A stretch of 15,474 bases of DNA from an uncultured archaeon (GTDB taxonomy: Archaea > Altiarchaeota > Altiarchaeia > IMC4 > SCGC-AAA252-I15). Positions within the stretch are counted from its first letter, which is position 1; each line of letters begins with the position of its first letter. A program made the position numbers and the translations under genes. Positions 1,283 through 15,474 of this stretch are shown in pieces. The DNA lies in assembly GCA_902384455.1 (NCBI GenBank), contig CABMCB010000013.1, forward strand, positions 1 to 15,474. Reading direction: 5' to 3'. The notes beneath the pieces were generated by a model. The model had not been told where the DNA came from. It saw only the letters and a list, made by a program, of their open reading frames with translations, and made no database searches.

Positions 1283-2785
1283 TTATAGTCTGCTTTCTCT
1301 TAGTGCGTCTATGTCTGGTTGGTATAGTTGGCGTATGTCTGTTAGGCCTGTGCGTAGTGTTACTACGCGGTCTAGTCCTAGTCCCCATGCTAGTACGGGT
1401 ATGTCTTCTCCTAGTATGGGTTGGGTTACTTCTGGTCGGAATATTCCTGCTCCGCCTAGTTCTACCCATTCGCCGCGTTCTTCGAGGTAGACTTCTGGTT
1501 CTACGCTCATTTCTGTGTAGGGGAAGTATCCTGGTCGGAAGCGTATTTTTTTGAATCCCATTTTGTCGTAGAATTCTTTTAGTATTCCGAGTAGTCCGCG
1601 GAAGTTGGCGTTTTTGTCTGCGATTATGCCTTCTACTTGGTAGAATTCGGGTAGGTGTTTGTAGTCGATTGCTTCGTTTCTGAATACTTTGCCTATGCTG
1701 AAGACTTTTTGGGGTAGGTCGGCTGGGGTGATGCTTGCTAGGTATCGGCTTGTTACGCATGTTGTGTGGGTGCGCAGTACTGTTTTGAGTGCTTCGTCTT
1801 CTTTCCATTTGTATTGCCAGCCGGTGCTGCCTGTTTTCCATCCGTTTTCGTGGGTTTGTTTGACTGGGTCTTTGAGGCGTTCGAGGTGGGGTATTTGGAT
1901 TCGGTTTGGGTTTTTGAGGTAGAATGTGTCTTGCATGTCTCGGACTGGGTGGTCTTGGGCGGTGAATAAAGCGTCGAAGTTCCAGAAGCTGCTTTCCACG
2001 TAGTCGCCTGAGATTTCCCTAAAGCCCATGCCGGTGAATATTTGGCGGATTTCAGTCATCGCCCGGCGTAGCGGGTGCTTCTTCGCTGGGTGGTTGGGTT
2101 TGACGTACACTGTGACGTCGTAGGGGCGAAATGTTTTGTTTTTCCAGCTGCCGCCCTTAAGGATTTCAGGTGTGAGTTGGCCGATTTTGTCTGATGCTTC
2201 GGTATCTTTTAGTGAAGGGATTATTTTTTCGCCGTCGGGAGTTAGTTTAATTTGAATGGTCTTTACTTTGGTTACCCGCAAGACATTCTTTCGCGAGGCG
2301 AGAAGGTCGAACGCGGCTTTTTCCTTTTCATCAAGCGCCGACAGATGGATAGCTTTTGACTCTTTGATTTTACGAAGGAGTTTTTCGTCGTCGCGTTCTG
2401 AGGCGTCGCCTATGATGAATTCTGTGCCTGCGAGTGCGCCGTGGTTTTTTCTGCGAATCCAGCCGACGGCTATGCTGAAGACTTGCTGGGGAACTGCCTT
2501 CCGGACTTCCTCGGCCGGAATGCGTTGTTTGCCTTTGCAGGCATTAAGTAATTGACGTTCTGGGAGTCCGTTCTCTGCGTAATCTTCTCCCTCAGCATCA
2601 AGAGCAATAACTTCGTCAGGGTACTCCATCACCTCAACGAATTTCTTAGTAGTTAACCACCCGGCCGCCCTGAGGACGGCGTCCTCGGATATCCCTGCTT
2701 TATCAGCTATTTGTTTAGGATACAACGGACCTTTTAGACTCCCAAGAGTCTTGAGTACTTTTATTTCTGCGGGGTGTAGTTCCAT
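1283..2785 (-). CDS. pheS: Phenylalanine--tRNA ligase alpha subunit (archaeal/eukaryal long form)
   Basis: 500 aa. Motifs FWNFDALFTAQDHPVRDMQDTFY, LRTHTT, class II motif 2 FRNEAIDYKHLPEFYQVEG, FRPGYFPYTEMSVE and motif 3 ELGGAGIFRPEV...WGLGLDR. N-terminal wHTH-type extension (GLPERQL). Confidence 0.98.
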   Translation of the reverse strand: MELHPAEIKVLKTLGSLKGPLYPKQIADKAGISEDAVLRAAGWLTTKKFVEVMEYPDEVIALDAEGEDYAENGLPERQLLNACKGKQRIPAEEVRKAVPQQVFSIAVGWIRRKNHGALAGTEFIIGDASERDDEKLLRKIKESKAIHLSALDEKEKAAFDLLASRKNVLRVTKVKTIQIKLTPDGEKIIPSLKDTEASDKIGQLTPEILKGGSWKNKTFRPYDVTVYVKPNHPAKKHPLRRAMTEIRQIFTGMGFREISGDYVESSFWNFDALFTAQDHPVRDMQDTFYLKNPNRIQIPHLERLKDPVKQTHENGWKTGSTGWQYKWKEDEALKTVLRTHTTCVTSRYLASITPADLPQKVFSIGKVFRNEAIDYKHLPEFYQVEGIIADKNANFRGLLGILKEFYDKMGFKKIRFRPGYFPYTEMSVEPEVYLEERGEWVELGGAGIFRPEVTQPILGEDIPVLAWGLGLDRVVTLRTGLTDIRQLYQPDIDALRESRL

Positions 2786-2813
2786 TTGTTTTGTTGAGTA
2801 GTGGGAGGAAAGG

Positions 2814-2820
2814 TAAATAA
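2814..2820 (-). promoter_or_regulatory. Putative TATA box for pheS
   Basis: TTATTTA on the minus strand 29-35 nt upstream of the ATG at 2785. Confidence 0.4.
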
Positions 2821-2823
2821 GCA

Positions 2824-2851
2824 GCTGGCTGCTGGGGCAGCGGCTTTTTTT
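2824..2851 (+). terminator. Hairpin + T7 terminator-like element, antisense to both flanking genes
   Basis: GCTGC-TGGG-GCAGC stem, extendable by GCT/GGC with one bulge, immediately followed by TTTTTTT at 2845-2851. Confidence 0.3.
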
Positions 2852-2860
2852 GTGTTGCGT

Positions 2861-4318
2861 TTATGCGTAGTCGAATCCTGCGGTGTTTTGTTTTTTCTTT
2901 GTTTTGAATTCGAATTTATGTTTCTTGTGTTTGGGCACGTCTATTGAGTCTATTTTACAAAGCAGGAAGGGTACGTCTACGAGTGCGCCGGCGATTATGC
3001 ATTCGGCTACGTCTAGGCTGTCGAGGTCGCGTATTATTGTGTCGTTGATGCATTCGAAGCTTTTTCTTATGTGTTCTTTGTCGTTGGGGTTGGTGATGTG
3101 CATGTATATGCCGGTGTTGCATTGGGAAAGTATTTCTTCGTCGATTTTGCTTGGCTTCTGGCTGACGACGACGAGGCCTATCCCGAATTTTCTTCCTTCG
3201 CTTGCTAGCCGGGATAGTTGGTGTTTGCAGCTGGCGTTTAGGTTGTTTGCTGCGTAGTTGTGGGCTTCTTCTATGAGTAGCATTAGGGGGTTTTCTATTC
3301 GGTCTCCTTCCATTTCGTGGACTGCGTTCATGCGGCCTTTAAGGAGTTCTTTGGCGAGGTAGCTTACTACTGCTTGGCGTACTGCGGTTTGTGATAGGCT
3401 TACGTCGATTATTGTTACTTGGCCTGGTTCTATTAGGGTGGTTATGTCTGTTCCGTGCGTGCTGAATACGTCCTTGAAGTTTCGGCTGAGGCTTTTGAGT
3501 TTTCTTTGTAGTGCGCCTACTGTTCCTTCGTGGTATGTTCCTATTCCTGCTGTTCCGCCTTTGGTTGTTGCGACTGGTAGTCTGCTGCATGCTTCTGCTA
3601 GGTCGTCGATTAGGTAGTGTTCTTTGTTTTTGCGGACGTCTTCTATGACTGCTTCGAGGGCGTTCTGCTGCGGGTCGGTGAGCGAAGGTATGAAGTGGTG
3701 GAAGTCTGATGGCTCAAGGTCTGAGACTGGAATCTTGAATTGTTTCATTCCGCTTCTTGCGTGTTTGACTGTGAGGACTTCGACTTGAAACTTGTTTTCC
3801 TTGGATAGAGGCTCGATAAGCGAGGGGTATTCGCCGTGGGTGTCTACTATTAGGACTGGCAGTTTGAGGCGGGCGTACTCCTTAATCAGGTTTGCGGCGG
3901 TGTAGCTTTTTCCGCTGCCGGTGCTTGCAAGAATTGCTATGTGCCTGTCGAACTCAGAAGCCTTAAGCAGCGCCCTTGCTTTTGTTCCGTATATTACGCC
4001 GATTGCTATCCGGTCTTCTCCCGAAAGAAGAGTCTCAAGCTCCTGTTTGCCCGCAAAATAAACGTGAAGGTAAGGCTCTAGAGGCCGCTTGATTTTCCGT
4101 ATGCGGCCGTCTATTAGGCGGCCGAATATTTGCAGGTCTGCTTGTAGTAGGTGTCGGCTTCCTATTGTTGCGTCTTCTTTGTAGCGCATGGCTGTGACTA
4201 TGCCGTATGCGTCTACCGCGCGTAGTATGCTTCCTACTTCGACTTGGTCGCTTGTGACTTGGATTATTAGGTTTGCGCCGTCGCTTTCTATTATCATGCC
4301 GGCGGGTTGCGTTTCCAT
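2861..4318 (-). CDS. herA: HerA/FtsK-family (DUF87) P-loop ATPase / DNA translocase
   Basis: 485 aa. N-terminal HAS-barrel-like region, RHIAILASTGSGKS (Walker A), LIVDTHGEY, LLIEEAHNY (Walker B), EGRKFGIGLVVVSQKPSKID (Arg finger/sensor) and ILSQCNT. Orthology to the NurA-partner HerA versus a paralog is not established. Confidence 0.9.
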   Translation of the reverse strand: METQPAGMIIESDGANLIIQVTSDQVEVGSILRAVDAYGIVTAMRYKEDATIGSRHLLQADLQIFGRLIDGRIRKIKRPLEPYLHVYFAGKQELETLLSGEDRIAIGVIYGTKARALLKASEFDRHIAILASTGSGKSYTAANLIKEYARLKLPVLIVDTHGEYPSLIEPLSKENKFQVEVLTVKHARSGMKQFKIPVSDLEPSDFHHFIPSLTDPQQNALEAVIEDVRKNKEHYLIDDLAEACSRLPVATTKGGTAGIGTYHEGTVGALQRKLKSLSRNFKDVFSTHGTDITTLIEPGQVTIIDVSLSQTAVRQAVVSYLAKELLKGRMNAVHEMEGDRIENPLMLLIEEAHNYAANNLNASCKHQLSRLASEGRKFGIGLVVVSQKPSKIDEEILSQCNTGIYMHITNPNDKEHIRKSFECINDTIIRDLDSLDVAECIIAGALVDVPFLLCKIDSIDVPKHKKHKFEFKTKKKQNTAGFDYA

Positions 4319-4321
4319 GTT

Positions 4322-4353
4322 CGGTAAATTCTACGGTAAATTCCGTTATATAG
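4322..4353 (-). promoter_or_regulatory. herA promoter: TATA box plus tandem 10-bp operator-like repeat
   Basis: Minus-strand CTATATAA at 4353-4346. CGGTAAATTC occurs at 4322-4331 and 4334-4343, between the TATA box and the ATG. Confidence 0.55.
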
Positions 4354-4419
4354 GGTGCTTTAGGTTTGGGGGGTATGATGCGAGTTGAGGAGTTTGCGTG
4401 TTTTCTGTTGGGAGGGGAG

Positions 4420-5373
4420 TTAAGTCTGTTTTCGCATGCGGCTGTATATTCGCCGGGTTATTTCGCCTCTCATGTTTGCCATTTCGTCGGGGTTGAGCGT
4501 CTCCATCATATCCCGCAGTTCGCTCCCTTTCTTTCCTGCTGCGGGCTCTACGCCCATGTCGCGGGCTTTGCGCACCATCTTCAAGTCGCTAAGGCGTCCC
4601 TGCCGCTGTTCTTCGATTTCTTCTACAAGCTCGATGTCTCTTGCTATTTCAGATGTCCGAGTAGTCCCTCCCCCTCTTTCGCGGGAGGTGAGGCCGAGTC
4701 CGGGGACTTCAAGTCTCCTTTTTTTCCCTATTGTTTTGAGGCCTTGCGGGTCGATTGACTCATGCGTTACAACGGGAATCAGATGCTCTAATGCGATTTC
4801 CCAGCTGTAGCGGCCGTGTTGCAGGTATTCCGCCCATTTTTTATTGCCTGAGAGGAGGGGTTCTAGCGCATGCATCCGTATGGCTCTGAAGCCAGAGTGC
4901 ATGGGCTGGCATACTCTGGATTCGATTAGTTCTGGGTCGCCTTGCGTGTATGGCGCGCGTATCATCCATATGTCGTTGTTGTCGTGGATTTTGGATAGAA
5001 AACCGCCTATTTGGTCTACTGTGAGGTTTGCCATGTCGGCGTCGGTCGTGAACATTATGGTTGCTGCTTCTGTTTTGCAGTATTTTACTGCGGTCGTGTA
5101 TGCCGCAGTCTTACCTTTGTTTTCGGCGTGAGTTATGATTGCGCCGTGTTGTAGGATGGTTTGGGTGCTTCCGTCTTCCAGATTTTTTTCTGAGACAGGT
5201 TTCCCCAGAACCTCCTGAACTCTGTCTTTAGTGAGGTCTGTGCTGCCGTCGTCAACCACAAGTATTCCGTCGATTAAGCCGGCGTCTCTTGCGGACAATA
5301 GAGCCTCAAGGACGGGCTTTATGTAGTTTTGTTCGTTGTAGGCCGGCACCACGGCTATGATTCTTTCTGGCAT
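4420..5373 (-). CDS. GT-A fold glycosyltransferase (GT2 / GpgS-like) with charged C-terminal extension
   Basis: 317 aa. IAVVPAYNE, ILVVDDGSTD, NKGK, DxD motif TDADM, SGFRAIR and YSWEIAL; no TM helix. Confidence 0.85.
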   Translation of the reverse strand: MPERIIAVVPAYNEQNYIKPVLEALLSARDAGLIDGILVVDDGSTDLTKDRVQEVLGKPVSEKNLEDGSTQTILQHGAIITHAENKGKTAAYTTAVKYCKTEAATIMFTTDADMANLTVDQIGGFLSKIHDNNDIWMIRAPYTQGDPELIESRVCQPMHSGFRAIRMHALEPLLSGNKKWAEYLQHGRYSWEIALEHLIPVVTHESIDPQGLKTIGKKRRLEVPGLGLTSRERGGGTTRTSEIARDIELVEEIEEQRQGRLSDLKMVRKARDMGVEPAAGKKGSELRDMMETLNPDEMANMRGEITRRIYSRMRKQT

Positions 5374-5397
5374 GCATTAGGCTATGGAATGCGGAGG

Positions 5398-5408
5398 TAT
5401 TAATTTTC
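5398..5408 (-). promoter_or_regulatory. Putative BRE/TATA for the GT2 gene
   Basis: GAAAATTAATA on the minus strand, with the TATA part 25-31 nt upstream of the ATG at 5373. Confidence 0.45.
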
Positions 5409-5464
5409 AGCACCTTCGGTTAGCCCACACCAGATTGTTAATCTCGTTGATTGACTGGAAGGCG

Positions 5465-5479
5465 ATATTTAGTGTCTTT
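5465..5479 (+). repeat. 15-bp direct repeat, left copy (ATATTTAGTGTCTTT)
   Basis: Exact match to 7226-7240; the two copies flank the 5510..7174 gene. Confidence 0.9.
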
Positions 5480-5509
5480 ACCTAGCACGGTTGGTGTTAG
5501 AAAAGTCAG

Positions 5510-7174
5510 TTAGATTACTTGGGTTTTCATTGTTTCGTAGTCCGGAGGCGTATATAGTACCGTACGGGCGTGTTCGATTAGTTCTATGTCTTCGTATTTG
5601 AGGCCGCCTTTATACAGTTTGTAAAAGTCGACGTCTCTGTTTATCATTGTTTTTCTTAGTGTGTCCCAGTCTTCTGGGGTGAGGGAGTCTAGTGTTTTCT
5701 TTTGCATTTCCGCCAGTTTCTCGCGGTTTCCGAAGAACATTCCTGTGAAAAGGAAGTTTCTGTTGTCCCCTGAAAGCGTATCTGGTGGCAGGTTGAGTCG
5801 TATGCAGGGGTGTATTTCCCTTGCTTCCGCGAGTTCCACGAATTCTTTCTTTACCTGCAGGTTTTCAGCGATTATGGCGCAGTCTAAGTCGCTTTGCGGG
5901 GTCATGTAGCCTTTTTCGGTGCTTCCAACTATTACTACCCCAACGTATCCACTGCCGAATTCCTCAGTTAATCTTGCGGATATATCGGCAAGCGCCTGAA
6001 GTCTGCCTTCGGTTTCACGCAGGAAAGGCGAAGCCAACGCAGGCTCCCCCAAACCTATTAGAAGGTCTAACATAGGTTTTTTATCTGCTTTTTTCTCTGC
6101 TAAAGCTGTTTTTGCGACAGAGCTGACGTCCGGGACTGGATCCTCAGTTAGTTTTTCCAGCTCATGCAGCGCCTGTCCGCCTACCGCACCCAAACTCCGC
6201 GCTACAGCGCAACGAATACCTAAGTCGTGGTCTTGAGCTAATTGGACCAACGTAGGGATGGCTCTTTCCCCTATTCTACCCAACGACTCTATTGCAGTGC
6301 AGTGTACACCACCATATGGGTCTTGGGCTAGTTTGGCTAGCGTCGGAATGGCTTCTTCTCCAACATTACCTAATGCTGTTGCAACAGCCACACGGACATT
6401 ATCTTCTGGATCTTCAGCAAGTTTGGATAGCGGAGGCAGAGCTTCCTTGCCTAAGTTACCTAATGCTGTTGCAGCAGCCCGACGGACATGGCCTTCCGAG
6501 TCTTCGGCTAGTTTTACTAACGTAGGGACGGCTGTTCCCCCTACATTGCCTAATGCTGCCGCAGTAGCCACGCGGACGTAGCCTTCAGGGTCTTCTGCAA
6601 GCGTGGATAGCGTAGGTAAAGCTTCATTGCCGACCTTTCCCAGAGCTTTTATTGCAGGTTCACGGAATAACCAATTCGGCGCCAATGCCAGTAGAATCAA
6701 TGTAGGAAGAGCTTTCTCACCTACAGCACCCAACGCCGTTATTGCGTCTTGGCGGACATATTGTGTGTCTTTGAGTAGTGTTTGCAGAATAGGAAGCGCC
6801 TTTTCTCCTAAATTGCCCAATGCTGTTGCAGCAGCCCGACGGATATCCCGGTCTGAATCTTTGGCTAGTGTTTCGATTTTATCTGCCAACCGTTGTTTGT
6901 TTTCGTCTGGGATGTTCTTCTCCCCGCCGACTGCATACAGCGCCCCCATGCGGTTCACTAAGTCTCTGTTACCCAACTGTTGTATTATGAAGTCTGAGTT
7001 GAATTGTTCCTCGCCCAAAAGCATCCTAACTAGCCTAATTCTGTCTTGCATGAAAGCAGGCCTTGCTTTTGCCTCCAACAGAGGGGGAACTAGTTCGTCA
7101 ACAACAGAAATTCCTTTCAATGGCGTCCTATCGCCGGCCATGACTTCATCAAAACCCTTAGAAAGCACACTCAA
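5510..7174 (-). CDS. HEAT-repeat protein fused to a C-terminal Pol-beta-superfamily nucleotidyltransferase domain
   Basis: About 8-9 tandem 30-aa HEAT/PBS-lyase-like repeats (DxxxxVRxAAAxALGxxGxxAxPxLxxLAE), then VVIVGSTEKGYMTPQSDLDCAII, matching the hGSx10DhD motif, at 5882-5926. The start is uncertain: TTG at 7174 or ATG at 7141. Confidence 0.85.
   Translation of the reverse strand: MSVLSKGFDEVMAGDRTPLKGISVVDELVPPLLEAKARPAFMQDRIRLVRMLLGEEQFNSDFIIQQLGNRDLVNRMGALYAVGGEKNIPDENKQRLADKIETLAKDSDRDIRRAAATALGNLGEKALPILQTLLKDTQYVRQDAITALGAVGEKALPTLILLALAPNWLFREPAIKALGKVGNEALPTLSTLAEDPEGYVRVATAAALGNVGGTAVPTLVKLAEDSEGHVRRAAATALGNLGKEALPPLSKLAEDPEDNVRVAVATALGNVGEEAIPTLAKLAQDPYGGVHCTAIESLGRIGERAIPTLVQLAQDHDLGIRCAVARSLGAVGGQALHELEKLTEDPVPDVSSVAKTALAEKKADKKPMLDLLIGLGEPALASPFLRETEGRLQALADISARLTEEFGSGYVGVVIVGSTEKGYMTPQSDLDCAIIAENLQVKKEFVELAEAREIHPCIRLNLPPDTLSGDNRNFLFTGMFFGNREKLAEMQKKTLDSLTPEDWDTLRKTMINRDVDFYKLYKGGLKYEDIELIEHARTVLYTPPDYETMKTQVI
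6098..6859 (-). repeat. Intragenic tandem ~90-bp repeats encoding HEAT units
   Basis: TAATGCTG recurs at 6371, 6461 and 6551 (90-nt period). The 25-nt string AATGCTGTTGCAGCAGCCCGACGGA is identical at 6462-6486 and 6819-6843. Confidence 0.9.
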
Positions 7175-7225
7175 CTCTACACATCAGCCGAATAAATACA
7201 GACTCTTCGAGTGTATGTAAGCGCA

Positions 7226-7240
7226 ATATTTAGTGTCTTT
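7226..7240 (+). repeat. 15-bp direct repeat, right copy; overlaps the likely TATA box of the DUF99 gene
   Basis: Exact match to 5465-5479; AATATTTA lies 34-41 nt upstream of the ATG at 7266. Confidence 0.9.
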
Positions 7241-7265
7241 GGGCTATGAGGTAAGTGGTGGGATT

Positions 7266-7859
7266 ATGGAGGAGAGGTTTCGTCGGGTTAAGGATGAGGT
7301 CAGGATTTTGGGCGTCGACGACGGCCCGCATAAGAGGACTGACAAAGACGTTCTTGTTGTTGGAGTAGTGTTTAGGGGCGGGCGTTTCATGGACGGCGTA
7401 TTGTCCATGCGGACGGCTGTTGATGGCCTTGATGCTACTGAGAATCTTGTTAAGATGGTTTCAATGTGCCATTTTAAGGACTTGAGGGTGGTGATGACTG
7501 ACGGCATAAGCCTTGGAGGATTCAATGTGATTGATTTGCCCACTTTGACTGAAGCCACAGGGTTGCCGGCGATATCCATCATGCGCGAGATGCCGGACTA
7601 CGACGCAGTCAAAAAGGCCCTTTCTTACCTTCCTGACGCAGACAAAAGATGGCGGACAATACAATCGGCCGGAAAACCGCGGCCTGTGGAAACGCAGAAG
7701 GGGAAACAGATTTACGCTCAGGCGGTAGGAATCAAGTGGGAGGATGCGGTAAGAGTCGTTAAGGTTTCTGCGACACACAGCCTTCTTCCAGAGCCCATAC
7801 GGGCGGCGCATTTGATTGCCCGCGGCGTCACTTTGGGGGAAAGCAGGGGCCGAGCTTGA
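7266..7859 (+). CDS. DUF99 / UPF0215 family protein (endonuclease V-like fold)
   Basis: RILGVDDGP, VVGVVFRG, VDGLDAT, VMTDGISLGGFNVIDL, LPEPIRAAHLIARG. The ATG at 7266 with an upstream GGTGG is preferred over the track's GTG at 7233. Confidence 0.92.
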   Translation: MEERFRRVKDEVRILGVDDGPHKRTDKDVLVVGVVFRGGRFMDGVLSMRTAVDGLDATENLVKMVSMCHFKDLRVVMTDGISLGGFNVIDLPTLTEATGLPAISIMREMPDYDAVKKALSYLPDADKRWRTIQSAGKPRPVETQKGKQIYAQAVGIKWEDAVRVVKVSATHSLLPEPIRAAHLIARGVTLGESRGRA

Positions 7860-7899
7860 TGGGGGGTGATACTTAAGAGGGGGCACGTAATTTTTTATC

Positions 7900-8489: not shown

Positions 8490-8511
8490 CTGTTCTTCGT
8501 ATTCTTTGACG

Positions 8512-10516: not shown

Positions 10517-10894
10517 ATGGGGAAAGACGACTCGCTCATGGACCAACTGGTGTCATACATCCAAGAACACCAAGGTTCGGCCTTGTTAAGTGAAACTACC
10601 GCCGCTTTGAACGCGGACGATGAGACCGTCATGGGCCTCATCCGCATTCTTCAGGAGCATCAGATTATCCGCGTAGTTCCTCAGGATGACGGAAAGACCA
10701 AGATTGAGATGCTGAAGAACCCTAATGAGCTGGCTGAAAAACCTTCCGGCTCGGAGGAGGACCAGAAGGAGACCGCTCTTCCCTCCAGAAGCTCTTTTGC
10801 GCCTTCCGAATCTTCGGAAGAAGACCGCAGGGTATCTGATTTGCTGCGCCGGCTTAGGAACCGGACATTCGACAAGAAAACTAAGAAGGGTTAA
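10517..10894 (+). CDS. Hypothetical protein: N-terminal winged-helix-like domain, acidic/Ser linker, basic C-terminal helix
   Basis: 125 aa. MDQLVSYIQEHQGSALLSETTAALNADDETVMGLIRILQEHQIIRVV fits a wHTH pattern; the ORF fills the gap between its neighbours. Confidence 0.7.
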   Translation: MGKDDSLMDQLVSYIQEHQGSALLSETTAALNADDETVMGLIRILQEHQIIRVVPQDDGKTKIEMLKNPNELAEKPSGSEEDQKETALPSRSSFAPSESSEEDRRVSDLLRRLRNRTFDKKTKKG

Positions 10895-10897
10895 ATT

Positions 10898-11161: not shown

Positions 11162-11222
11162 ATGGACCACCAGACCGGTCTTTAAGAAGTGTTAATTAAG
11201 CGTTGTATTTAATAAATACGTG

Positions 11223-11678
11223 ATGGTCGGACGCATACGCCGAGGTCAGGCTTCGCTCGAGTACATGGTGATGCTGTCTTTGTCGCTGGCCATATTTGCG
11301 GCTATCCTGTACGTCACAGGCAATCTTATCACCAGCAGCAGTTCTCACATAGGTTTAGACGCTTCTTACCGCGCAGTGCAGCGTATTGGGGAGGCTGCTG
11401 ACTTCATTTATGTTCATGGTCATCCGAGTAAGACACGGATTAATGTTTATGTGCCGCCTAACATTGAGAATGTTAGTGTTGTCGGTTTCCGCTATGTGAA
11501 TATGCGGATTGCCGTTGGAGATAGTTACACAGATGTCTACGTAGTGCCCCGCACTAATATTACCGGCTTGGAGGGTTTGTGTGACCCTGTTTGCCGTGAG
11601 GGTTATTACGTTTTGAGCGTGGAGTCCACGCCTATGCAGTCGCCCACAAACGGCATCGTTAATATTACGAAGCAGTAG
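11223..11678 (+). CDS. Type IV pilin-like protein with class III signal peptide
   Basis: RRG|QASLEYMVMLSLSLAIFAAILY; pattern IGEAADFIYVHG...VYVPPNI; three N-x-S/T sequons. ATG at 11223 (GTG at 11220 possible). Confidence 0.85.
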   Translation: MVGRIRRGQASLEYMVMLSLSLAIFAAILYVTGNLITSSSSHIGLDASYRAVQRIGEAADFIYVHGHPSKTRINVYVPPNIENVSVVGFRYVNMRIAVGDSYTDVYVVPRTNITGLEGLCDPVCREGYYVLSVESTPMQSPTNGIVNITKQ

Positions 11679-11680
11679 CT

Positions 11681-12592
11681 ATGGCCCGTACTGGTCAAGC
11701 GAGCGTGGAGTTCGCTGTTGTGATCGCGGCGGTTTTCACTATTTTCATTATTTCCGGTTACGTCATTTATCAGAAGCAGGTTCGTTCGTCCGACGTGAAA
11801 CTTCAGATTGAGGGTGACCGCATCCTTAAGATTGTGGCTGAAGCGGTGAATGAAGTCAATATTGTGGGTGACGGTTACCATCAGACTTTGACTTTGCCTG
11901 CGCAGCTTTATGGGGACCAGCCGTATGAAGTGTTTTTTGTGAGTGATGAGCCCACCGTTTTTATGCGCGGCGGAAGCTTCGTTGGCGGGACGACGCATTA
12001 CTGGAGCGCGCCTCTTTCTTCGCCGCTCATTTATTGCCCGCGCTACGACTGCGCGTCCAGATGCAACCAGACCCTCTCTGAGACGTGCCTGCCGATAACC
12101 TCTGAGACCAATGTTAGGGTAGTCAACGAGCACGGGAAAATCTACGTGACAGACCCGTATTCCCTCACCCAAGAAGACGAAAAACGCTGGGTCACACCCC
12201 TCACGGGGATAGGCAATCCCTACCAAGGAGCGCCCTGCAAGCAGGGAGGAACAGTGTTTCTTTACCGCGACGTATCAAACCAAAGCCTCTACTTAGTCTT
12301 CAAACTCAACGGCACAGGAGAAGTCAAATTCGACCTGAACGAAACATGGGGAGGCCCAGTCGTCGAATTGTCTGACGACCCCGGAGAACTTTCCTTTGGA
12401 CGCAAACCTGAGGGGCACTGGGGTCTGGCTGAGGGAGGCTGCGACGGAGGAGTCATATCTTACTCCGCCGGCTTCATGCACACTTGCATAATACCTGAAA
12501 TGCCGATTTCCATGAACCTAACTTTCCTAGACAGAGAAGGCACGCGCATACACCTGCAGAACAACGAAAAATTCTGCATAACCTACCCTTGA
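11681..12592 (+). CDS. Type IV pilin-like protein (minor pilin) with class III signal peptide and extra C-terminal beta domain
   Basis: RTG|QASVEFAVVIAAVFTIFIISGY; VAEAVNEVNIVGDGYHQTLTLP; 8 Cys; starts 2 nt after the preceding gene. Confidence 0.85.
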   Translation: MARTGQASVEFAVVIAAVFTIFIISGYVIYQKQVRSSDVKLQIEGDRILKIVAEAVNEVNIVGDGYHQTLTLPAQLYGDQPYEVFFVSDEPTVFMRGGSFVGGTTHYWSAPLSSPLIYCPRYDCASRCNQTLSETCLPITSETNVRVVNEHGKIYVTDPYSLTQEDEKRWVTPLTGIGNPYQGAPCKQGGTVFLYRDVSNQSLYLVFKLNGTGEVKFDLNETWGGPVVELSDDPGELSFGRKPEGHWGLAEGGCDGGVISYSAGFMHTCIIPEMPISMNLTFLDREGTRIHLQNNEKFCITYP

Positions 12593-12594
12593 AA

Positions 12595-13695
12595 ATGAAA
12601 AACCGAGGCCAGCTTTTCACATGGGACCTGGTGTTCGCCACATTCATATTTCTTGTCTCTCTCCTTCTTTCGATTTACCTGTGGGAGTCTACAACAAACG
12701 ACATAGTCAACGCGGAAAGGACGTACGACATGGAGTGGCTTTCAACATGGAGCAGCGAAGAACTCGTCCGCATACCAGGATACCCCTACAACTGGACCAC
12801 CGCAGACGTCGTGGTCTACGGACTCACCCATGTGGCTCGCGTGCTTACTCCGTATGGTAGTGAGCAGAAGGTGGTTTATACTACTCCGGTGGATAGGGTT
12901 CTTGATTCGGATAAGATGATGTTTTTCGTTCAGTCTGTTAATTCGGATTATGAGTCTGCGCGGAGGAGGTTTTTGGGTGAGGCGCAGTACAATTTCTATG
13001 TGAGTTTTTTCTGTGTTAATGAGTCTAGGATGGATTGTTTTGATGGGTTGCCGCTTAGGTTTGTTAGGGATAACGTAACTTGCGGCAACAATTATACTTT
13101 TACTCAGCGGGATGGAATGTTGGATAGCCGGATTTGGCTTGAGGCTGAGCAGTGGTGGGGTAATCCTAACGATGAGAAGTGCGGAAACTGTTCGGCTGGC
13201 AACATGAGTCTTAATCCGTCGTCTGCGGTCGTGAGCCTGAACGCAATTCCGCGTTTGTACTCTGTGTGGGTGCGGGATTATGATGATCCTGCGGACCGTT
13301 CCTTCCAGATTAAGGTGGGGCCGGATTATTCCAGGGTTTTGGGGGTTCACGGCAGCAACGAGATTAGGTGGGAGTATGTAGGCGACTATTATCTTGATGG
13401 GTCGTCGCAGGTTTCATTCAACTTCACTAATTCCGCAACGCTGGTAGATGCGGTGCTTATCACAAGCGACGTGGAGTATAATCCTGCTTCTAGGAATCCG
13501 CCGTACGGCAATCCTTTTATGCCGTCTGACCCTCGTTGCGTTGTTGGCCAGGTTCCTGCGTCGGGGTATGATTTGCTTGTTTCGGACACTAAGACCGCCA
13601 CTTTCTGGCATGGCTCTTATTATCCGGGCACCCCAGGCAGTCCGTCGTATTTCTCCAATTATACTGTGCGCGTTCAGGTTGTGGCTTGGGTTTAA
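12595..13695 (+). CDS. Type IV pilin-like protein (G|QxFxxD type) with inserted carbohydrate-binding-module-like domain
   Basis: KNRG|QLFTWDLVFATFIFLVSLLLSIYLW; LVRIPGYPYNW; internal WLEAE...YSVWVR...WEYVG...VDAVLITSD; C-terminal strand VRVQVVAWV. ATG at 12595. Confidence 0.82.
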   Translation: MKNRGQLFTWDLVFATFIFLVSLLLSIYLWESTTNDIVNAERTYDMEWLSTWSSEELVRIPGYPYNWTTADVVVYGLTHVARVLTPYGSEQKVVYTTPVDRVLDSDKMMFFVQSVNSDYESARRRFLGEAQYNFYVSFFCVNESRMDCFDGLPLRFVRDNVTCGNNYTFTQRDGMLDSRIWLEAEQWWGNPNDEKCGNCSAGNMSLNPSSAVVSLNAIPRLYSVWVRDYDDPADRSFQIKVGPDYSRVLGVHGSNEIRWEYVGDYYLDGSSQVSFNFTNSATLVDAVLITSDVEYNPASRNPPYGNPFMPSDPRCVVGQVPASGYDLLVSDTKTATFWHGSYYPGTPGSPSYFSNYTVRVQVVAWV

Positions 13696-14756
13696 GGCGA
13701 GTCTTCTGGGCCGACTATTTTAGGAGCTATTAGGGCGTATATTAGAAGCAGCCATCCGGCCCATAGCCAGATGTGGCTTTTTTCTGTGGGGTAGGAGTCG
13801 ACGAGTATTTTGCCGCCTAAGTCTTCCACTATCCAGGTTATGTTGTTTGTTCCGTAGTGGATGTAGGGCGTCATGTTTATGGTTATGCCGCCGCAGTCTT
13901 GGCAGGACTTGTAGCATCCCGTGTTTTGGTATGTTTTTATCCCGTTTGCGTAGACTGCCCATAGGCAGTCGTCGGAGGGGAATTTTATTTGGAGGGACGG
14001 GTCTACGGATAAAAGAAGCAACGTGGATTCTGCCATGTAGAAGTGGGATGTCGATGGCCGCATCATGGGTAGGCTTATTTTTTCTTTTGGCGTCGTGATT
14101 ATGAAGTTGGGTTCTTTTGACGCTGGTACTTCGGATCGTAATGCTTCTTTTACTGAGGCGTTTAGTATGTTGAAGTAGACTTTTCCGCCGTTGTCTCTGA
14201 TTAAAATGGTCATATGGATTGTTTTGTTGGGTTCTGTTTTCAGTGCGAGTCCTTTGCAGTGGGCGCATTTGTTGCATGTGTCGTTGTGGAATACGGTGGC
14301 GTTGTCGATGTTGACTTTTTGGACGCAGTCGTCGGCGTATAGGGTTATTGTTCCGTCGGGCCCTGTTGTTGCGGTTAGGTTTATTAGGTAGAACTTTGGG
14401 TCGTATGTCTCGTTTGAGTAGGGTAGGTTTATTTTCGCGTATTTGGCTGAGGATAAGTCAAGCAGGGATTCTACAGGAATTTCCTGCCCCTGGATGCTTA
14501 GCCAATGGGGGGAGAGCACGTAGTCGGTGATTAAGTAGGCGCCTGAGACCGCGAGGATGATGCTCAACAGTAGATATAGTTTATTGACTGAGAGTATACG
14601 CCGCAGGTAAGTCTTTTTTGCTGCGGGGTTCGTCTTTTCTACGCCTGTAGCGGGCGCGTTTTTTCCGCCGTGACCGCCTGCGTGCACCTGCTTGACCGTC
14701 GGTTCTTTATCGGTTTTTTTTGCGGCGTTTTGACTTTCTTTTAGCGTATTTCGCAT
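13692..14756 (-). CDS. Membrane protein with two TM anchors enclosing two repeated extracellular beta-sandwich domains (DDC...CxxC motif)
   Basis: 354 aa, TM at about aa 60-80 and 329-347. Internal duplication: KINLPY..FY..ADDC..CNKCAHCKG..RDNGGK versus KISLPM..FY..SDDC..CYKSCQDCGG..EDLGGK. Confidence 0.8.
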   Translation of the reverse strand: MRNTLKESQNAAKKTDKEPTVKQVHAGGHGGKNAPATGVEKTNPAAKKTYLRRILSVNKLYLLLSIILAVSGAYLITDYVLSPHWLSIQGQEIPVESLLDLSSAKYAKINLPYSNETYDPKFYLINLTATTGPDGTITLYADDCVQKVNIDNATVFHNDTCNKCAHCKGLALKTEPNKTIHMTILIRDNGGKVYFNILNASVKEALRSEVPASKEPNFIITTPKEKISLPMMRPSTSHFYMAESTLLLLSVDPSLQIKFPSDDCLWAVYANGIKTYQNTGCYKSCQDCGGITINMTPYIHYGTNNITWIVEDLGGKILVDSYPTEKSHIWLWAGWLLLIYALIAPKIVGPEDSP

Positions 14757-14760
14757 TTTA

Positions 14761-15474
14761 TCACCTGTTATTTTGCCGGCATGCCGGATTAATCACGGTT
14801 GAATTGCCGCCGCTTTTTGGACGGGCGTCTGTGTACACCGTTAGAACGCCGATTTCAGCGTGCGGCAATTTCTCGAGGGCGCCGTATTTTTTTGGGTTAG
14901 TAGATACCACGACATACCGTATACTACTGTTGACGTCATTGTAGCATTTAGGCGAAATACCATTTCGACCCAAAAAATAGCTGAACATGACCTTCGGCCC
15001 CGTGTCTATTTTAGCGTCGTGCGTTATCCTAAACGAACGCCCAGCCGAATCCGAAAGAACGTACGAAACCACGCGCAACTGCGTCCCTAAGGAAGCCCCA
15101 AAATCACCAAACGCCCCACCTTGCTCAGCTAAGTATGAGAAGACGTTATCTAGAAACAACGCCTGAGAAACAAAAAGAAGAACCACAAGGAGGCCGACGG
15201 CGATTGCGCCGTTTCGTTTGAAATGTGTTGCAAGTGCGTCAAGGAAAAATCCTGTCAGCAAAAGCATTGAGGGGAACATGACGGAGTAGTAATGGGGGAA
15301 ACGGCCTCCGCCGTGGAGTAGGATGGCGGTAGTGGGGGCTAAAAACCACGTTAGGGTTATGAGTAGGCCGTGTTTGGTGTCTGATGTTGTGTTTGATTGT
15401 TTTTGGGTTTTTAGTGTGTAGGTGAGAGCGTAGATTGTTGAGATGAGTAGGAGTATTGATACGGTTTCGTACGC
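14761..15474 (-). CDS. GT-C (ArnT/PMT-like) membrane glycosyltransferase, 5'-partial
   Basis: The frame of the 14761..15279 ORF stays open to the window edge (AYETVSILLLISTIYAL...LLITLTWFLAPTTAILLHGGGRFPHYYSVMFPSMLLLTG). It has multiple TM helices, a HY..P motif and a C-terminal soluble domain, and ends 4 nt before the next gene. Confidence 0.7.
   Translation of the reverse strand, partial: AYETVSILLLISTIYALTYTLKTQKQSNTTSDTKHGLLITLTWFLAPTTAILLHGGGRFPHYYSVMFPSMLLLTGFFLDALATHFKRNGAIAVGLLVVLLFVSQALFLDNVFSYLAEQGGAFGDFGASLGTQLRVVSYVLSDSAGRSFRITHDAKIDTGPKVMFSYFLGRNGISPKCYNDVNSSIRYVVVSTNPKKYGALEKLPHAEIGVLTVYTDARPKSGGNSTVINPACRQNNR

What the first reader, a model, noticed from the sequence alone, without database searches (positions are those of the whole stretch)
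1283..15474. Sawtooth, kb-scale A/C-to-G/T synonymous skew that switches sharply inside genes, independent of gene strand
Seen (hand counts of third-codon-position bases read on the + strand): in the + strand pilin gene, 14/16 codons at 12781-12828 have A/C, then 23/24 at 12829-12900 have G/T. In minus-strand herA, 18/23 are A/C at 4022-4090, then 30/32 are G/T at 4091-4186. Similar jumps occur near 2753 (pheS), about 7200-7240 and about 15190-15280. The reverse transition is gradual (about 11950-12150, 1950-2500, 3700-3950). Jump polarity is the same in genes of opposite orientation, so transcription or codon selection does not explain it. Inference: a sharp jump with slow decay resembles replication-origin skew profiles but at 1-4 kb spacing. 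This suggests fixed, closely spaced sites where strand-asymmetric synthesis, resection or deamination starts, such as dispersed initiation, nick-directed long-patch repair or chromatin-positioned ssDNA exposure. I cannot say whether this has been described for this lineage.
Basis: partly seen in the sequence, partly recalled or inferred. Interest (0 to 1): 0.8.

Follow-up and report, generated by a model that had tools for sequence, protein, structure and literature searches.

The report
Strand-skew sawtooth anchored at GGCC sites
In this uncultured archaeon the silent codon positions flip sharply from A/C to G/T and then drift back, and many flips sit on the 4-base word GGCC, as if short DNA words launch one-directional error-prone DNA processing, a pattern I could not find in print.

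Summary
In the window, 32 positions have a sharp A/C-to-G/T jump (D>=1.0) and none has the reverse. It survives restriction to fourfold-degenerate sites.

It is genome-wide on about 1.6 Mb of archaeal contigs. It is absent from 11 co-binned phage- or bacteria-like contigs, which act as a negative control.

GGCC is the best anchor of all 256 4-mers (z=37). 124 of 238 sharp up-jumps, and 0 of 64 down-jumps, lie within 12 nt of one. In the window only 3 of 9 jumps do, and the strongest (12829) does not.

New here: four relatives in three genera show a weaker GGCC step. One relative uses the asymmetric word GAGCD, with a one-sided tract: flat upstream, G/T-rich for about 500 nt downstream on the strand carrying the word.

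Best reading: site- and strand-specific nicking followed by low-fidelity 5'-to-3' resynthesis. The enzyme is unknown.

This scan had already noted the GGCC anchoring on two other pieces of this genome, and a similar mosaic in another genome. Five paper searches found no description.

The parts
1283..15474 (.). Mosaic of G/T-rich and A/C-rich third codon positions (read on the + strand), crossing 15 genes of both orientations
   Evidence: per-gene and per-codon strings; 32 positions with D>=1.0 against 0 with D<=-1.0; max D 1.67 against 1.07 in 500 shuffles
4083..4123 (.). Cluster of three GGCC sites (4083, 4105, 4120) at the sharp jump inside herA. The peak at 4100 has D=1.2, going from -0.33 to +0.87
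   Evidence: nearest GGCC 6 nt away
15192..15369 (.). GGCC sites at 15192, 15303 and 15366 at the jump near 15187 (D=0.87). All-position keto skew rises by +0.44 to +0.53 across each site
10634..10637 (.). GGCC 12 nt from a weaker up-jump at 10648 (D=0.80)
1129..1348 (.). Four GGCC sites (1129, 1180, 1235, 1345) to the left of the long G/T-saturated tract in pheS. The up-jump peak at 1295 has D=0.80 and lies 51 nt from the nearest site
12828..12831 (.). Strongest jump of the window (D=1.67, from -0.73 to +0.93), inside the + strand gene 12589-13695. No GGCC lies within 221 nt. Unexplained exception; GGCT at about 12834 is a possible decayed site but this was not testable
   Evidence: One search found no enrichment of GGCT near the non-GGCC jumps
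2750..2756 (.). Up-jump near the 5' end of pheS (D=0.93). The nearest GGCC (2663) is 88 nt to the left, so the jump is not anchored
7175..7240 (.). Up-jump across the divergent intergenic region (peak 7235, D=0.80). The nearest GGCC sites are 7136 and 7323, so the jump is not anchored. Its polarity is opposite to what the gene-strand baseline would give
1283..2000 (.). Tract with third positions nearly all G/T on the + strand (so the coding strand of pheS ends its codons in A/C). It decays gradually over about 1950-2700
2861..3700 (.). G/T-saturated tract in herA. It decays over about 3700-3950 into an A/C-rich stretch at 3940-4090
12040..12828 (.). A/C-rich tract that builds up gradually from about 11950 and crosses the gene border at 12589-12592
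12829..13100 (.). G/T-saturated tract after the 12829 jump, with slow decay further right
13900..14420 (.). G/T-rich tract in the minus-strand gene 13692-14756
14940..15190 (.). A/C-rich tract to the left of the 15192 GGCC
   Evidence: keto skew of the 150 nt to the left is -0.39

Best explanation
SHOWN. The window carries a heritable mutational footprint, filtered by selection because it is strongest at silent positions. From short DNA words, the strand that carries the word becomes enriched in G and T on its 3' side, for a few hundred nucleotides. In this genome the word is the palindrome GGCC, which reads the same on both strands. Each site therefore sends a G/T tract rightwards on the + strand and leftwards on the - strand. 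On the + strand this reads as A/C-rich to the left and G/T-rich to the right: a sharp upward jump at the site and a gradual fall towards the next site, which is the sawtooth.

INFERRED. A sequence-specific enzyme, of a restriction-modification or DNA-modification type whose specificity differs between lineages, occasionally nicks one strand at or next to the word. DNA is then resynthesised 5'-to-3' from the nick (nick translation or long-patch repair) by a polymerase acting without effective error correction. Its commonest errors are G opposite T and T opposite G. These turn A into G and C into T on the new strand. Even rare events would outweigh the background mutation rate near the sites.

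NOT EXPLAINED. I do not know which enzyme does this. I cannot explain why about half of the sharp jumps, including the window's strongest at 12829, have no GGCC today. I also cannot explain why site strength varies so much.
For: - Real and silent-site-borne. With fourfold sites only on the mosaic contigs, 138 positions have D>=1.5 and 15 have D<=-1.5.
- Asymmetric, by a strand-invariant statistic: 936 against 94 positions at |D|>=1.2, 201 against 6 at 1.4, and 26 against 0 at 1.6.
- GGCC anchor: rank 1 of 256 4-mers within 12 nt of 238 up-jump peaks (43% against 8.5% of 5000 control positions). After refining the change points, 124 of 238 lie within 12 nt, against 0 of 64 down-jumps. Mean step +0.155, z=37.4, n=7071; the next words all overlap GGCC. 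The profile at all 8029 sites goes from -0.12 on the left to +0.05 on the right, while CCGG, GCGC, CGCG, GTAC, AGCT and CATG are flat. With fourfold sites only and skipping 10 nt on each side, the step is +0.226, z=37.8, n=5210. In the window the mean step at 62 GGCC is 0.14, reached by 3 of 5000 random position sets.
- Not a composition artefact: an A/C-to-G/T boundary would by itself favour words such as CCGG, not GGCC.
- Internal negative control: 11 co-binned contigs (511 kb) with similar GGCC density have overdispersion 1.0-1.45, step -0.005 (n=1632) and no jumps.
- Independent of gene orientation: the step is +0.24 to +0.30 in all three reading frames and in both co- and anti-oriented genes.
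- Length scale: across GGCC-free intervals the skew falls antisymmetrically from about +0.2 to -0.3. The amplitude grows up to intervals of 700-1100 nt, and the middle is flat in intervals over 1800 nt. On 316 flanks with at least 1000 nt to the next site, it falls from +0.26 to about 0 over roughly 550 nt.
- Strand-specific and one-directional: in relative G019 the anchor is GAGC/GCTC, ranks 1 and 2 of 256 in 60 kb and again in a separate 442 kb (z=8.3 and 7.4). A, G or T must follow the word; C abolishes the step. On the strand carrying GAGCD the 600 nt upstream are flat (-0.005 to +0.016). Downstream the skew starts at +0.118 and decays with a length constant of about 260 nt (n=2044).
- The same GGCC step ranks 1 of 256 in relatives G001, G011, G016 and G006, and 3 of 256 in G004.
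- Pointers to synthesis errors rather than plain deamination. At fourfold sites of the most skewed zones the keto-rich strand has A 0.02, C 0.06, G 0.39, T 0.53, so A is lost at least as fully as C. In 8 paralogue pairs that differ in keto content, the net gain was 204 by transitions and 104 by A>T and C>G changes.
- Indirect sign of a GGCC-specific nuclease in this host: 20 low-GC contigs (about 120 kb) hold 0 GGCC (about 299 expected) and 2 GATC (about 448 expected), but 206 CCGG. A GATC (DpnII-type) system is encoded on the archaeal contig C71.
Against: - No candidate enzyme was found. There was no C5 methylase (PF00145; the control rang in 9 of 14 genomes) and no Vsr (PF03852). There was no HaeIII or NgoPII nuclease family, though those two searches rang in no control genome. 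There was no DndC, DndD or DndE and no PAPS-reductase family member in this 92%-complete genome.
- A Y-family polymerase is present, but its presence among 41 relatives does not follow the phenomenon. It was found in G002 and G024, which lack the step. It was not found in G011, G016, G006 or G019, which have it.
- 114 of 238 sharp up-jumps are more than 12 nt from a GGCC, and 75 are more than 20 nt away. In the window 6 of 9 are unanchored, including the strongest.
- Decayed sites (GGCT/AGCC) are not enriched at the unanchored jumps (1.24-fold, not significant). No second anchor word emerged more than 160 nt from GGCC.
- A uniform additive GGCC model explains little of the mosaic: r=0.24 on 30-codon bins, against 0.31 for gene strand alone and 0.39 for both. 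Site strength must therefore vary widely for reasons I did not find.
- Within about 10 nt of the site the outward skew is reduced or reversed, apart from a strong K at the first flanking base. The simple model does not predict this.
- The nick, the resynthesis and the polymerase bias are all inferred. No read, methylation or polymorphism data could be obtained.
Confidence: 0.42

Rival explanations
1. Single-strand exposure with deamination. The word directs a process that leaves the site-bearing strand single-stranded on its 3' side. Examples are 3'-to-5' excision of the complementary strand from a nick, a long displaced flap that re-anneals, or an R-loop. Exposed C and A deaminate to U and hypoxanthine, giving C>T and A>G on that strand, as proposed for the heavy strand of vertebrate mitochondrial DNA.
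For: The polarity and the one-sided decay fit equally well. Both C and A are depleted on the keto-rich strand. The window itself encodes an endonuclease dU family protein (PF01949, E=2e-58), so deaminated bases are an issue this cell handles. The mitochondrial gradient is recalled, not looked up.
Against: Spontaneous deamination of C is far faster than that of A (recalled). Yet A is depleted at least as fully as C: 0.02 against 0.06 at fourfold sites. Saturation weakens this argument. About a third of the net keto gain between paralogues is A>T or C>G, which deamination does not make. At about 25% divergence, multiple hits blur this too. The standard 5'-to-3' resection from a break at the site would expose the other strand and give the opposite polarity (reasoning, not a call).
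Confidence: 0.25
2. Site-specific priming or mini-origins. A primase or primase-polymerase starts DNA chains at GGCC (GAGCD in the relative), during replication restart or lagging-strand synthesis. The first few hundred nucleotides are made with low fidelity before a proofreading polymerase takes over.
For: The profile between sites has the shape of the replication N-domains of the human genome: an upward jump followed by a near-linear fall (the comparison rests on abstracts listed). The tract lies 3' of the word on the strand that carries it, as expected if the new chain begins there.
Against: Anchors lie every 193 nt at the median, far too dense for origins. A specificity that changes between genera (GGCC, GAGCD, none) is typical of restriction-modification-type recognition rather than of replicative primases (recalled). 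If only lagging-strand priming were involved, large regions should show only one of the two directions. Averaged over sites, both directions are seen. I did not search for primase-polymerase genes.
Confidence: 0.12
3. Backbone (phosphorothioate-like) modification as the source of the breaks. A Dnd- or Ssp-like system modifies GGCC on both strands, or an asymmetric word on one strand. Breaks arise during installation or oxidation of the modification and are repaired with errors.
For: Passages read in the review PMC6435447 say the following. The Streptomyces lividans modification core is GpsGCC on both strands. Another system modifies CpsCA on one strand only. Only part of the consensus sites are modified. 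Nicking is predicted during sulphur insertion. Oxidants break the strand at modified sites. These points parallel the palindromic and one-sided anchors and the very uneven site strength seen here.
Against: DndC (TIGR03183), DndD (TIGR03185) and DndE (PF08870) were not found in G000 (the DndE search rang in no control). DUF4007, which I recall as the SspB family, was found in 0 of 41 genomes, but that search rang in no control either. No PAPS-reductase family member was found in G000, G006, G016 or G019, while the control rang in 14 of 14 genomes.
Confidence: 0.06
4. Selection or expression: codon-usage selection, transcription-coupled asymmetry or amino-acid composition creates the blocks.
For: A real gene-strand component exists. 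The coding strand is A/C-rich at third positions: mean -0.117 over 2262 ORFs. In the GGCC-free contigs C42 and C83 the skew simply follows gene orientation. Gene strand alone gives r=0.31 on 30-codon bins.
Against: Blocks switch inside genes and cross gene borders. The GGCC step is equal in co- and anti-oriented genes and in all frames. It persists at fourfold sites. Positions 1 and 2 are dragged the same way, with keto fraction 0.43 to 0.57 across the skew bins, as expected of mutation pressure.
Confidence: 0.03
5. Artefact of sequencing, assembly or binning (mis-joins, strand-specific errors, chimeric contigs).
For: The genome is a 103-contig bin that does hold foreign contigs. No reads could be laid to check junctions.
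Against: Reading frames stay open. The bias is about 5 to 10 times stronger at third than at first or second positions, which only evolution under selection produces. Foreign contigs of the same assembly lack it. Five other genomes show the same kind of anchored step. Inversions or mis-joins would give up and down jumps equally, not 201 against 6.
Confidence: 0.02

Closest known systems
Replication-associated strand asymmetry (G/T-rich leading strand in bacteria; 'N-domains' of the human genome with upward skew jumps at origins and a linear fall between them; PMC2764438 and PMC3320577, abstracts seen in the listing)
   Same: The A/C-to-G/T jump has the same polarity on both strands. The return between neighbouring start sites is gradual and near-linear. 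The signal is carried by silent sites.
   Different: The scale is about 0.2-1 kb here, against megabases or whole replichores. The anchor is a 4-5-base word occurring every ~190 nt, not an origin. The word differs between genera. The asymmetric word gives a one-sided tract. The amplitude locally reaches about 95% G/T at silent sites.
Heavy-strand deamination gradient of vertebrate mitochondrial DNA (recalled, no paper read)
   Same: Combined C>T and A>G enrichment on one strand. The strength is graded with distance from a fixed start.
   Different: That is one gradient per genome, tied to strand-displacement replication. Here there are thousands of starts defined by a short word.
Site-directed nick-and-resynthesis repair: very-short-patch repair (Vsr at methylated C sites) and MutH/GATC-directed mismatch repair (recalled)
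   Same: A short, often palindromic word linked to a methylation system directs a strand-specific nick. Excision and resynthesis start from that nick.
   Different: No Vsr or C5 methylase was found. Vsr patches are only a few nucleotides (recalled), against a few hundred here. These systems lower the mutation rate, and no compositional footprint around their sites is known to me.
DNA phosphorothioate modification (Dnd: GpsGCC or GpsAAC/GpsTTC on both strands; Ssp: CpsCA on one strand), review PMC6435447, passages read
   Same: A 4-base GGCC core, a single-strand variant, partial and heterogeneous site use, and nicking or strand breakage at the site.
   Different: Dnd and Ssp marker families were not found in this genome. 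No mutational footprint of phosphorothioate sites is described in the passages I read.
Immunoglobulin somatic hypermutation and strand-coordinated mutation clusters (kataegis) in eukaryotes (recalled)
   Same: A sharp 5' boundary, decay over 1-2 kb or less, strand-coordinated changes, and involvement of patch resynthesis or single-stranded DNA.
   Different: Those are somatic and locus- or break-specific. They are driven by cytosine deaminases and start at promoters or breaks, not at a short word across a whole prokaryotic genome.

Membership tests
Replication-origin strand skew | Upward keto-skew jump with gradual or opposite return | tested here: met
Replication-origin strand skew | Jumps are origins, spaced at replicon scale | tested here: not met
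   Anchoring GGCC sites have a median spacing of 193 nt over 5843 intervals. Tracts fade within about 550 nt. Origin-binding repeats and initiator genes were not searched.
Transcription-coupled strand asymmetry | The sign of the skew follows gene orientation | tested here: not met
   The step at GGCC is the same in co- and anti-oriented genes. Blocks switch inside genes. A separate baseline of this kind does exist.
Type II restriction-modification system of GGCC specificity (HaeIII/NgoPII type) | Restriction endonuclease gene | tested here: inconclusive
   PF09556 and PF09521 gave no match in G000, but both searches rang in none of the 14 control genomes.
Type II restriction-modification system of GGCC specificity (HaeIII/NgoPII type) | Cytosine methyltransferase gene | tested here: inconclusive
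   PF00145 was not found, and its control rang in 9 of 14 genomes. PF01555 (N4/N6) has 8 matches. The one on C71 belongs to a DpnII-type GATC system. The specificities of those on C57 and C89 are unknown.
Type II restriction-modification system of GGCC specificity (HaeIII/NgoPII type) | Avoidance of the word in DNA exposed to the nuclease | tested here: met
   20 contigs (about 120 kb) hold 0 GGCC against about 299 expected. That these contigs reside in this host is inferred only from co-binning and shared GATC avoidance.
Very-short-patch repair (Vsr) | Vsr endonuclease gene | tested here: not met
   PF03852 was not found, and its control rang in 3 genomes. The genome is 92% complete.
Phosphorothioate modification (Dnd/Ssp) | dndC/D/E or sspB/D genes | tested here: not met
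   TIGR03183, TIGR03185 and PF08870 were not found. PF13182 was found in 0 of 41 genomes, with no control ringing. PF01507 was not found in G000, G006, G016 or G019, with the control ringing in 14 of 14.
Phosphorothioate modification (Dnd/Ssp) | Short consensus (GGCC core or single-strand word) with only part of the sites used | tested here: met
   This is a resemblance only. The GGCC anchor and very uneven site strength come; the one-strand word in G019; the paper passages.
Methyl-directed mismatch repair (MutS/MutL/MutH type) | MutS, MutL and a site-specific nicking endonuclease | not tested
   No search was made for these families. A NucS-type gene is present.

The most novel reading that the evidence does not exclude
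A family of uncultured archaea carries an undescribed DNA transaction. Short, lineage-specific recognition words (GGCC in at least four genera, GAGCD in another) act as strand-specific launch sites for tracts of mutagenic DNA synthesis or strand exposure, a few hundred nucleotides long. The process is frequent enough to dominate the mutation spectrum and to rewrite silent sites, and partly the amino-acid composition, across the whole chromosome. It would be the first case where a restriction- or modification-like specificity module leaves a genome-wide directional mutational footprint. It would point to a new nick-and-resynthesis enzyme system.
Probability: 0.5. Interest if true: 0.92.

Novelty: categorically new. 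Interest (0 to 1): 0.86.

Why it matters
If the reading holds, base composition, codon usage and even protein composition in these archaea are set locally by the positions of a 4-5-base word. Replication, transcription and translational selection would not be the main causes. That would be a new determinant of genome composition.

It would also give a sequence-only readout of an in-vivo strand-specific DNA process: its site, strand, direction and tract length. The specificity switches between genera, which should allow the responsible genes to be found by comparative genomics.

There are practical consequences. Such genomes will mislead composition-based binning, codon-usage-based expression predictions, origin prediction from skew, and substitution models used in phylogeny.

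Tried and rejected
- Decayed-site idea for the non-GGCC jumps: among 71 such jumps, GGCT is not enriched near the change point (21 near against 50 in far flanks, 1.24-fold). No word passed multiple-testing correction.
- Second anchor in G000: among 4-mers more than 160 nt from any GGCC, none has a positive step.
- Uniform additive model of GGCC positions: only r=0.24 on 30-codon bins, against 0.03 for CCGG and 0.08 for GCGC.
- Scale-free 'tracts meet in the middle' reading: dropped, because amplitude depends on interval length and long intervals are flat in the middle. A fixed length scale of a few hundred nt fits. The exponential fit for G000 was degenerate (near-linear decline).
- Extended recognition motif: strong sites (230 of 4765) have A/C at -1 (88%) and G/T at +4 (84%), with R at -2 and C at +5. 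The flank bias can be a passive consequence of the skew itself, so I make no claim.
- CCGCGG as anchor in G026: z=4.0 in 80 kb but z=1.7, rank 10 of 64, in a further 400 kb. Rejected.
- Y-family polymerase as determinant: its presence does not follow the phenomenon.
- Dnd/Ssp, Vsr, C5 methylase, and HaeIII and NgoPII nuclease families: not found. Several of these searches had no ringing control.
- Close relatives for polarised substitutions: the metagenome scan with herA found no relative. The nearest genomes held are about 40% identical in protein, too far for site-level comparison.
- Sequencing runs: none was listed, and no RNA holder was listed. No polymorphism, junction or expression check was possible.
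- Paralogue comparison: only 8 of 36 pairs differed enough in keto content, and at about 25% divergence. Indicative only.
- PHROGs on 30 ORFs of the GGCC-free contigs C42 and C83: 2 weak hits of unknown function. Their nature stays open.
- Phylum: the Atlas look-up of pheS only confirms an archaeal-type enzyme. 'Altiarchaeota' comes from earlier scan notes and I did not verify it.
- Paper searches returned nothing describing a word-anchored or kb-scale keto-skew mosaic in archaea. I saw listings and abstract starts only, and subscription journals are not covered.

Full report
WHAT THE WINDOW IS

The window is contig C13 of a 103-contig, 2.41-Mb genome bin. It holds 15-16 genes on both strands. 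They include the archaeal-type PheRS alpha subunit (1283-2785, minus strand), a HerA-like ATPase (2861-4318, minus), a glycosyltransferase, a HEAT-repeat protein, an endonuclease dU family protein (7233-7859, plus), translin, UbiA and several pilin-like or unassigned genes. Earlier notes of this scan call the organism Altiarchaeota. I did not verify the phylum.

THE OBSERVATION

- 14 of 16 A/C at 12781-12828, then 23 of 24 G/T at 12829-12900.
- 18 of 23 A/C at 4022-4090, then 30 of 32 G/T at 4091-4186.
- Fisher p = 7e-8 and 3e-8.

The strings of third-position letters show tracts of several hundred nucleotides where nearly every third position is G or T on the + strand. These lie at 1283-2000, 2861-3700, 12829-13100 and 13900-14420. 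The tracts are the same whether the gene is on the + or the - strand. The bias sits in third positions: +0.59 and +0.68 for pheS and herA, against +0.07 to +0.13 at positions 1 and 2.

I defined D as the mean keto value of the next 30 third positions minus that of the previous 30. Reverse complementation leaves D unchanged, so its asymmetry cannot come from the choice of strand. In the window:
- 32 positions have D>=1.0 and none has D<=-1.0.
- The maximum D is 1.67, against at most 1.07 in 500 shuffles.

With fourfold-degenerate sites only, the window has 15 positions with D>=1.2 and none with D<=-1.2.

GENOME-WIDE PICTURE AND A BUILT-IN CONTROL

I called 2262 long ORFs with a crude rule: the longest non-overlapping ORFs of at least 100 aa. 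Over these, gene-level third-position keto skew ranges from -0.9 to +0.89. Up-jumps far outnumber down-jumps:

| Threshold | Up-jump positions | Down-jump positions |
|---|---|---|
| D at least 1.2 | 936 | 94 |
| D at least 1.4 | 201 | 6 |
| D at least 1.6 | 26 | 0 |

The contigs of at least 10 kb fall into three groups:
- 41 'mosaic' contigs (1.62 Mb, including the window) have 4- to 10-fold overdispersion of 30-codon bins.
- 11 contigs (511 kb) have overdispersion 1.0-1.45 and no jumps.
- 2 contigs (C42 and C83) have no GGCC at all.

The 11 quiet contigs carry bacterial-type sigma-70 factors, a GH108 lysozyme, an integrase and a phage-type RNA ligase. Pfam hit 18 of the 38 ORFs sampled from three regions. 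These contigs share almost no homologues with the rest: 4 of 546 ORFs. They are probably phage or bacterial DNA binned by mistake. They serve as a negative control for my ORF-based pipeline.

THE ANCHOR

Two earlier follow-ups of this scan, on other pieces of this genome, reported that the jumps sit on GGCC. I tested this from scratch.
- Among all 256 4-mers, GGCC is the most enriched within 12 nt of 238 up-jump peaks: 43% against 8.5% of 5000 control positions.
- After maximum-likelihood refinement of the change points, 124 of 238 up-jumps lie within 12 nt of a GGCC and 163 of 238 within 20 nt. For down-jumps the figures are 0 of 64 and 1 of 64. One of the 65 down peaks lay on a contig without GGCC and was dropped.
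- Without any peak picking, the mean step across all GGCC sites is +0.155 (z=37.4, n=7071). The next-ranked words all overlap GGCC.
- Six other palindromes are flat.
- On fourfold sites, skipping 10 nt on each side, the step is +0.226 (z=37.8, n=5210) on mosaic contigs and -0.005 (n=1632) on the control contigs.

An A/C-to-G/T boundary would by composition favour words such as CCGG, not GGCC. The association is therefore not a by-product of the skew.

In the window the mean step at 62 GGCC sites is 0.14, a value reached by 3 of 5000 random position sets. Only 3 of the 9 window jumps (4100, 10648, 15187) lie within 12 nt of a site. The strongest, at 12829, is 221 nt from the nearest.

ANATOMY OF THE TRACTS

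Direction and frame. The step has the same size (+0.24 to +0.30) in all three reading frames. It is also the same for genes that run away from or towards the site. The frame-dependent offsets are an ascertainment effect. For example, GGC-CNN can only exist where third positions are C.

A separate baseline makes the coding strand A/C-rich. It is the only skew seen in the GGCC-free contigs C42 and C83.

Length. Between neighbouring sites the + strand skew falls antisymmetrically from about +0.2 to about -0.3. The amplitude grows with interval length up to 700-1100 nt, and the middle is flat in intervals over 1800 nt. On 316 flanks with at least 1000 nt to the next site it falls from +0.26 to about 0 over roughly 550 nt.

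Near-site detail. Within about 10 nt of the site the outward skew is reduced or reversed, except for a strong G/T at the first flanking base. The control contigs show none of this. I cannot explain it.

Site strength. Strength varies widely. The distribution of steps is shifted by +0.22 and has a heavy right tail. A uniform additive model gives only r=0.24.

Composition. In the most skewed zones the keto-rich strand has A 0.02, C 0.06, G 0.39, T 0.53 at fourfold sites. First and second codon positions are dragged the same way, with keto fraction rising from 0.43 to 0.57. Proteins are therefore affected too.

RELATIVES: THE MOST INFORMATIVE NEW RESULT

The nearest genomes held are in other genera, about 40% protein identity. 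Site-by-site comparison is therefore impossible. I sampled 10-500 kb from 17 of them and ranked all 256 4-mers by step.

| Genome (genus or family) | GGCC z | GGCC rank of 256 |
|---|---|---|
| G001 (g2) | 5.6 | 1 |
| G011 (g2) | 5.3 | 1 |
| G016 (g5) | 3.8 | 1 |
| G006 (g7) | 4.3 | 1 |
| G004 (g5) | 2.2 | 3 |
| G012, G002 (g3) | -3.6, -2.5 | 255, 254 (slightly negative step) |
| G013, G018, G010, G019, G015, G007, G003, G023, G024, G026 | -0.6 to +1.1 | 17 to 186 (unremarkable) |

In G019 (g8; the genome is only 57% complete), GAGC and its complement GCTC ranked first and second in the first 60 kb. They did so again in a separate 442 kb (z=8.3 and 7.4), where GGCC ranked 220th. The word must be followed by A, G or T. 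With C the step vanishes: 0.005 against 0.087-0.104.

Because this word is asymmetric, it shows the direction of the process. On the strand that carries 5'-GAGCD-3', the 600 nt upstream are flat (-0.005 to +0.016). The downstream side starts at +0.118 and decays with a length constant of about 260 nt. This holds in genes of both orientations (n=2044).

The process is therefore strand-specific and runs 5'-to-3' from the word. A palindrome like GGCC simply does this on both strands, which gives the origin-like jump.

MECHANISM

What is shown: a word-anchored, strand-specific, one-directional enrichment of G and T over a few hundred nucleotides. It is heritable, filtered by selection, and has a lineage-specific word.

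What I infer: a sequence-specific nick followed by 5'-to-3' resynthesis with uncorrected G-T mispairs. These turn A into G and C into T on the new strand.

Rare events would suffice, because an unproofread polymerase errs orders of magnitude more often than the background rate. This is a reasoned estimate, not a measurement.

The main rival is exposure of the site-bearing strand as single-stranded DNA, followed by deamination. It fits the polarity equally well. Two observations argue against it, both weakened by saturation:
- A is lost at least as completely as C.
- A third of the net change between paralogues is A>T or C>G.

Site-specific priming fits the direction. However, it does not fit the density of anchors or the switch of specificity between genera.

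A double-strand cut with ordinary 5'-to-3' resection and deamination of the 3' tail predicts the opposite polarity.

THE ENZYME

I found no enzyme.
- No C5 methylase, Vsr, HaeIII or NgoPII nuclease, Dnd or PAPS-reductase family member was detected in this 92%-complete genome. Some of these searches had no ringing control.
- The one clear restriction-modification locus is a DpnII-type GATC system on C71, next to a DNA ligase, an HhH-GPD glycosylase and a LigD phosphoesterase. It explains the GATC depletion: 8 observed against 48 expected in the window, and O/E 0.23 on mosaic contigs.
- A Y-family polymerase is present but does not track the phenomenon among relatives.
- Indirect evidence for a GGCC-specific nuclease comes from 20 low-GC contigs of the bin (about 120 kb). 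They contain no GGCC (about 299 expected) and 2 GATC (about 448 expected), but 206 CCGG. This is the signature of DNA that must survive both a GATC and a GGCC restriction activity.

NOVELTY

Five full-text searches gave nothing on word-anchored or kb-scale keto-skew mosaics in archaea. I saw listings and abstract starts only, and subscription journals are not covered.

The closest known patterns are replication N-domains (abstracts seen) and the mitochondrial heavy-strand gradient (recalled). The closest known biochemistry is site-directed nick-and-resynthesis repair and phosphorothioate modification, whose GpsGCC and single-strand CpsCA consensus sites, partial site use and strand breakage I read in passages of PMC6435447. 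Membership in each of these was tested and is not met or is inconclusive.

This scan had already reported the GGCC anchoring on two other pieces of this genome, and a similar unanchored mosaic in another genome.
- the internal negative control;
- the fourfold-site and frame controls;
- the tract anatomy;
- the spread of the GGCC step to three other genera;
- the asymmetric GAGCD anchor with its one-sided tract;
- the GGCC-free contigs;
- the exclusion of several candidate enzyme families.

LIMITS

- Gene calls are crude.
- The relatives are single unnamed species representatives, sampled in part.
- Kinship makes the four GGCC-positive relatives less than four independent cases.
- No reads, methylation data or close relatives were available.
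- About half of the sharp jumps, including the window's best one, remain unanchored.

Noticed in passing
G000 contigs C4, C10, C25, C28, C38, C40, C59, C61, C68, C69, C100 (511 kb): These contigs of the bin lack the mosaic entirely (overdispersion 1.0-1.45, GGCC step about 0). They have almost no GATC (7 in 511 kb). They encode bacterial-type sigma-70 factors, a GH108 lysozyme, an integrase and a phage-type RNA ligase. They are probably phage or bacterial DNA binned with the archaeon.
   Followed up: partly
20 low-GC contigs of G000 (C15, C24, C26, C30, C31, C33, C36, C37, C42, C44, C45, C46, C73, C75, C82, C83, C87, C91, C98, C99; about 120 kb): They hold zero GGCC (about 299 expected) and 2 GATC (about 448 expected), but 206 CCGG. 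On C42 and C83 the skew only follows gene orientation. The ORFs have almost no family matches. This may be a mobile element or virus shaped by GGCC and GATC restriction.
   Followed up: partly
G000:C71:217676-220372 (locus L066 5676-8372); window-wide GATC count: A DpnII-type GATC restriction-modification operon (Dam-class methylase, DpnII nuclease, second N4/N6 methylase). It lies beside an ATP-dependent DNA ligase, an HhH-GPD glycosylase and a LigD 3'-phosphoesterase. GATC is strongly depleted: 8 against 48 expected in the window, and O/E 0.23 on mosaic contigs.
   Followed up: partly
window 7233-7859 (+): An endonuclease dU family gene (PF01949, E=2e-58; NCBIfam PRK00766 at 231 bits, just under its cut-off of 235). 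It starts right at the unanchored up-jump at about 7235. It is relevant to handling of deaminated bases, but I did not test a link.
   Followed up: no
relative G019 (loci L082-L084, L091-L092, L103-L130): The skew step is anchored on the asymmetric word GAGCD, not GGCC, and the tract is one-sided on the 3' side of the word. Up-jumps exceed down-jumps there too: 166 against 46 positions at |D|>=1.0.
   Followed up: yes
relatives G012 and G002 (genus g3; loci L013-L020): GGCC ranks 255th and 254th of 256 words, with a small negative step (-0.045 and -0.042; z=-3.6 and -2.5). This is the reverse of G000 and is unexplained.
   Followed up: no
all GGCC sites on mosaic contigs of G000, within 10 nt of the site: The fine structure is palindromic. 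There is a strong A/C at -1 and G/T at +1 past the site. Over the next 2-9 nt the outward skew is reduced or reversed, and the plateau begins at about 11 nt. None of this appears on the control contigs.
   Followed up: partly
window 2-1249 (-): A 416-aa open frame running off the contig end has no Pfam or NCBIfam match. Its + strand keto skew is strong at all three codon positions (+0.16, +0.32, +0.44). It may be a protein whose composition has been reshaped by the skew, or not a real gene.
   Followed up: no
G000:C39:30584-31033 and G000:C63:24180-24500: A Y-family DNA polymerase gene (387-aa frame) and a NucS/EndoMS-type gene lie on mosaic contigs. The polymerase's distribution among relatives does not follow the skew phenomenon.
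   Followed up: partly
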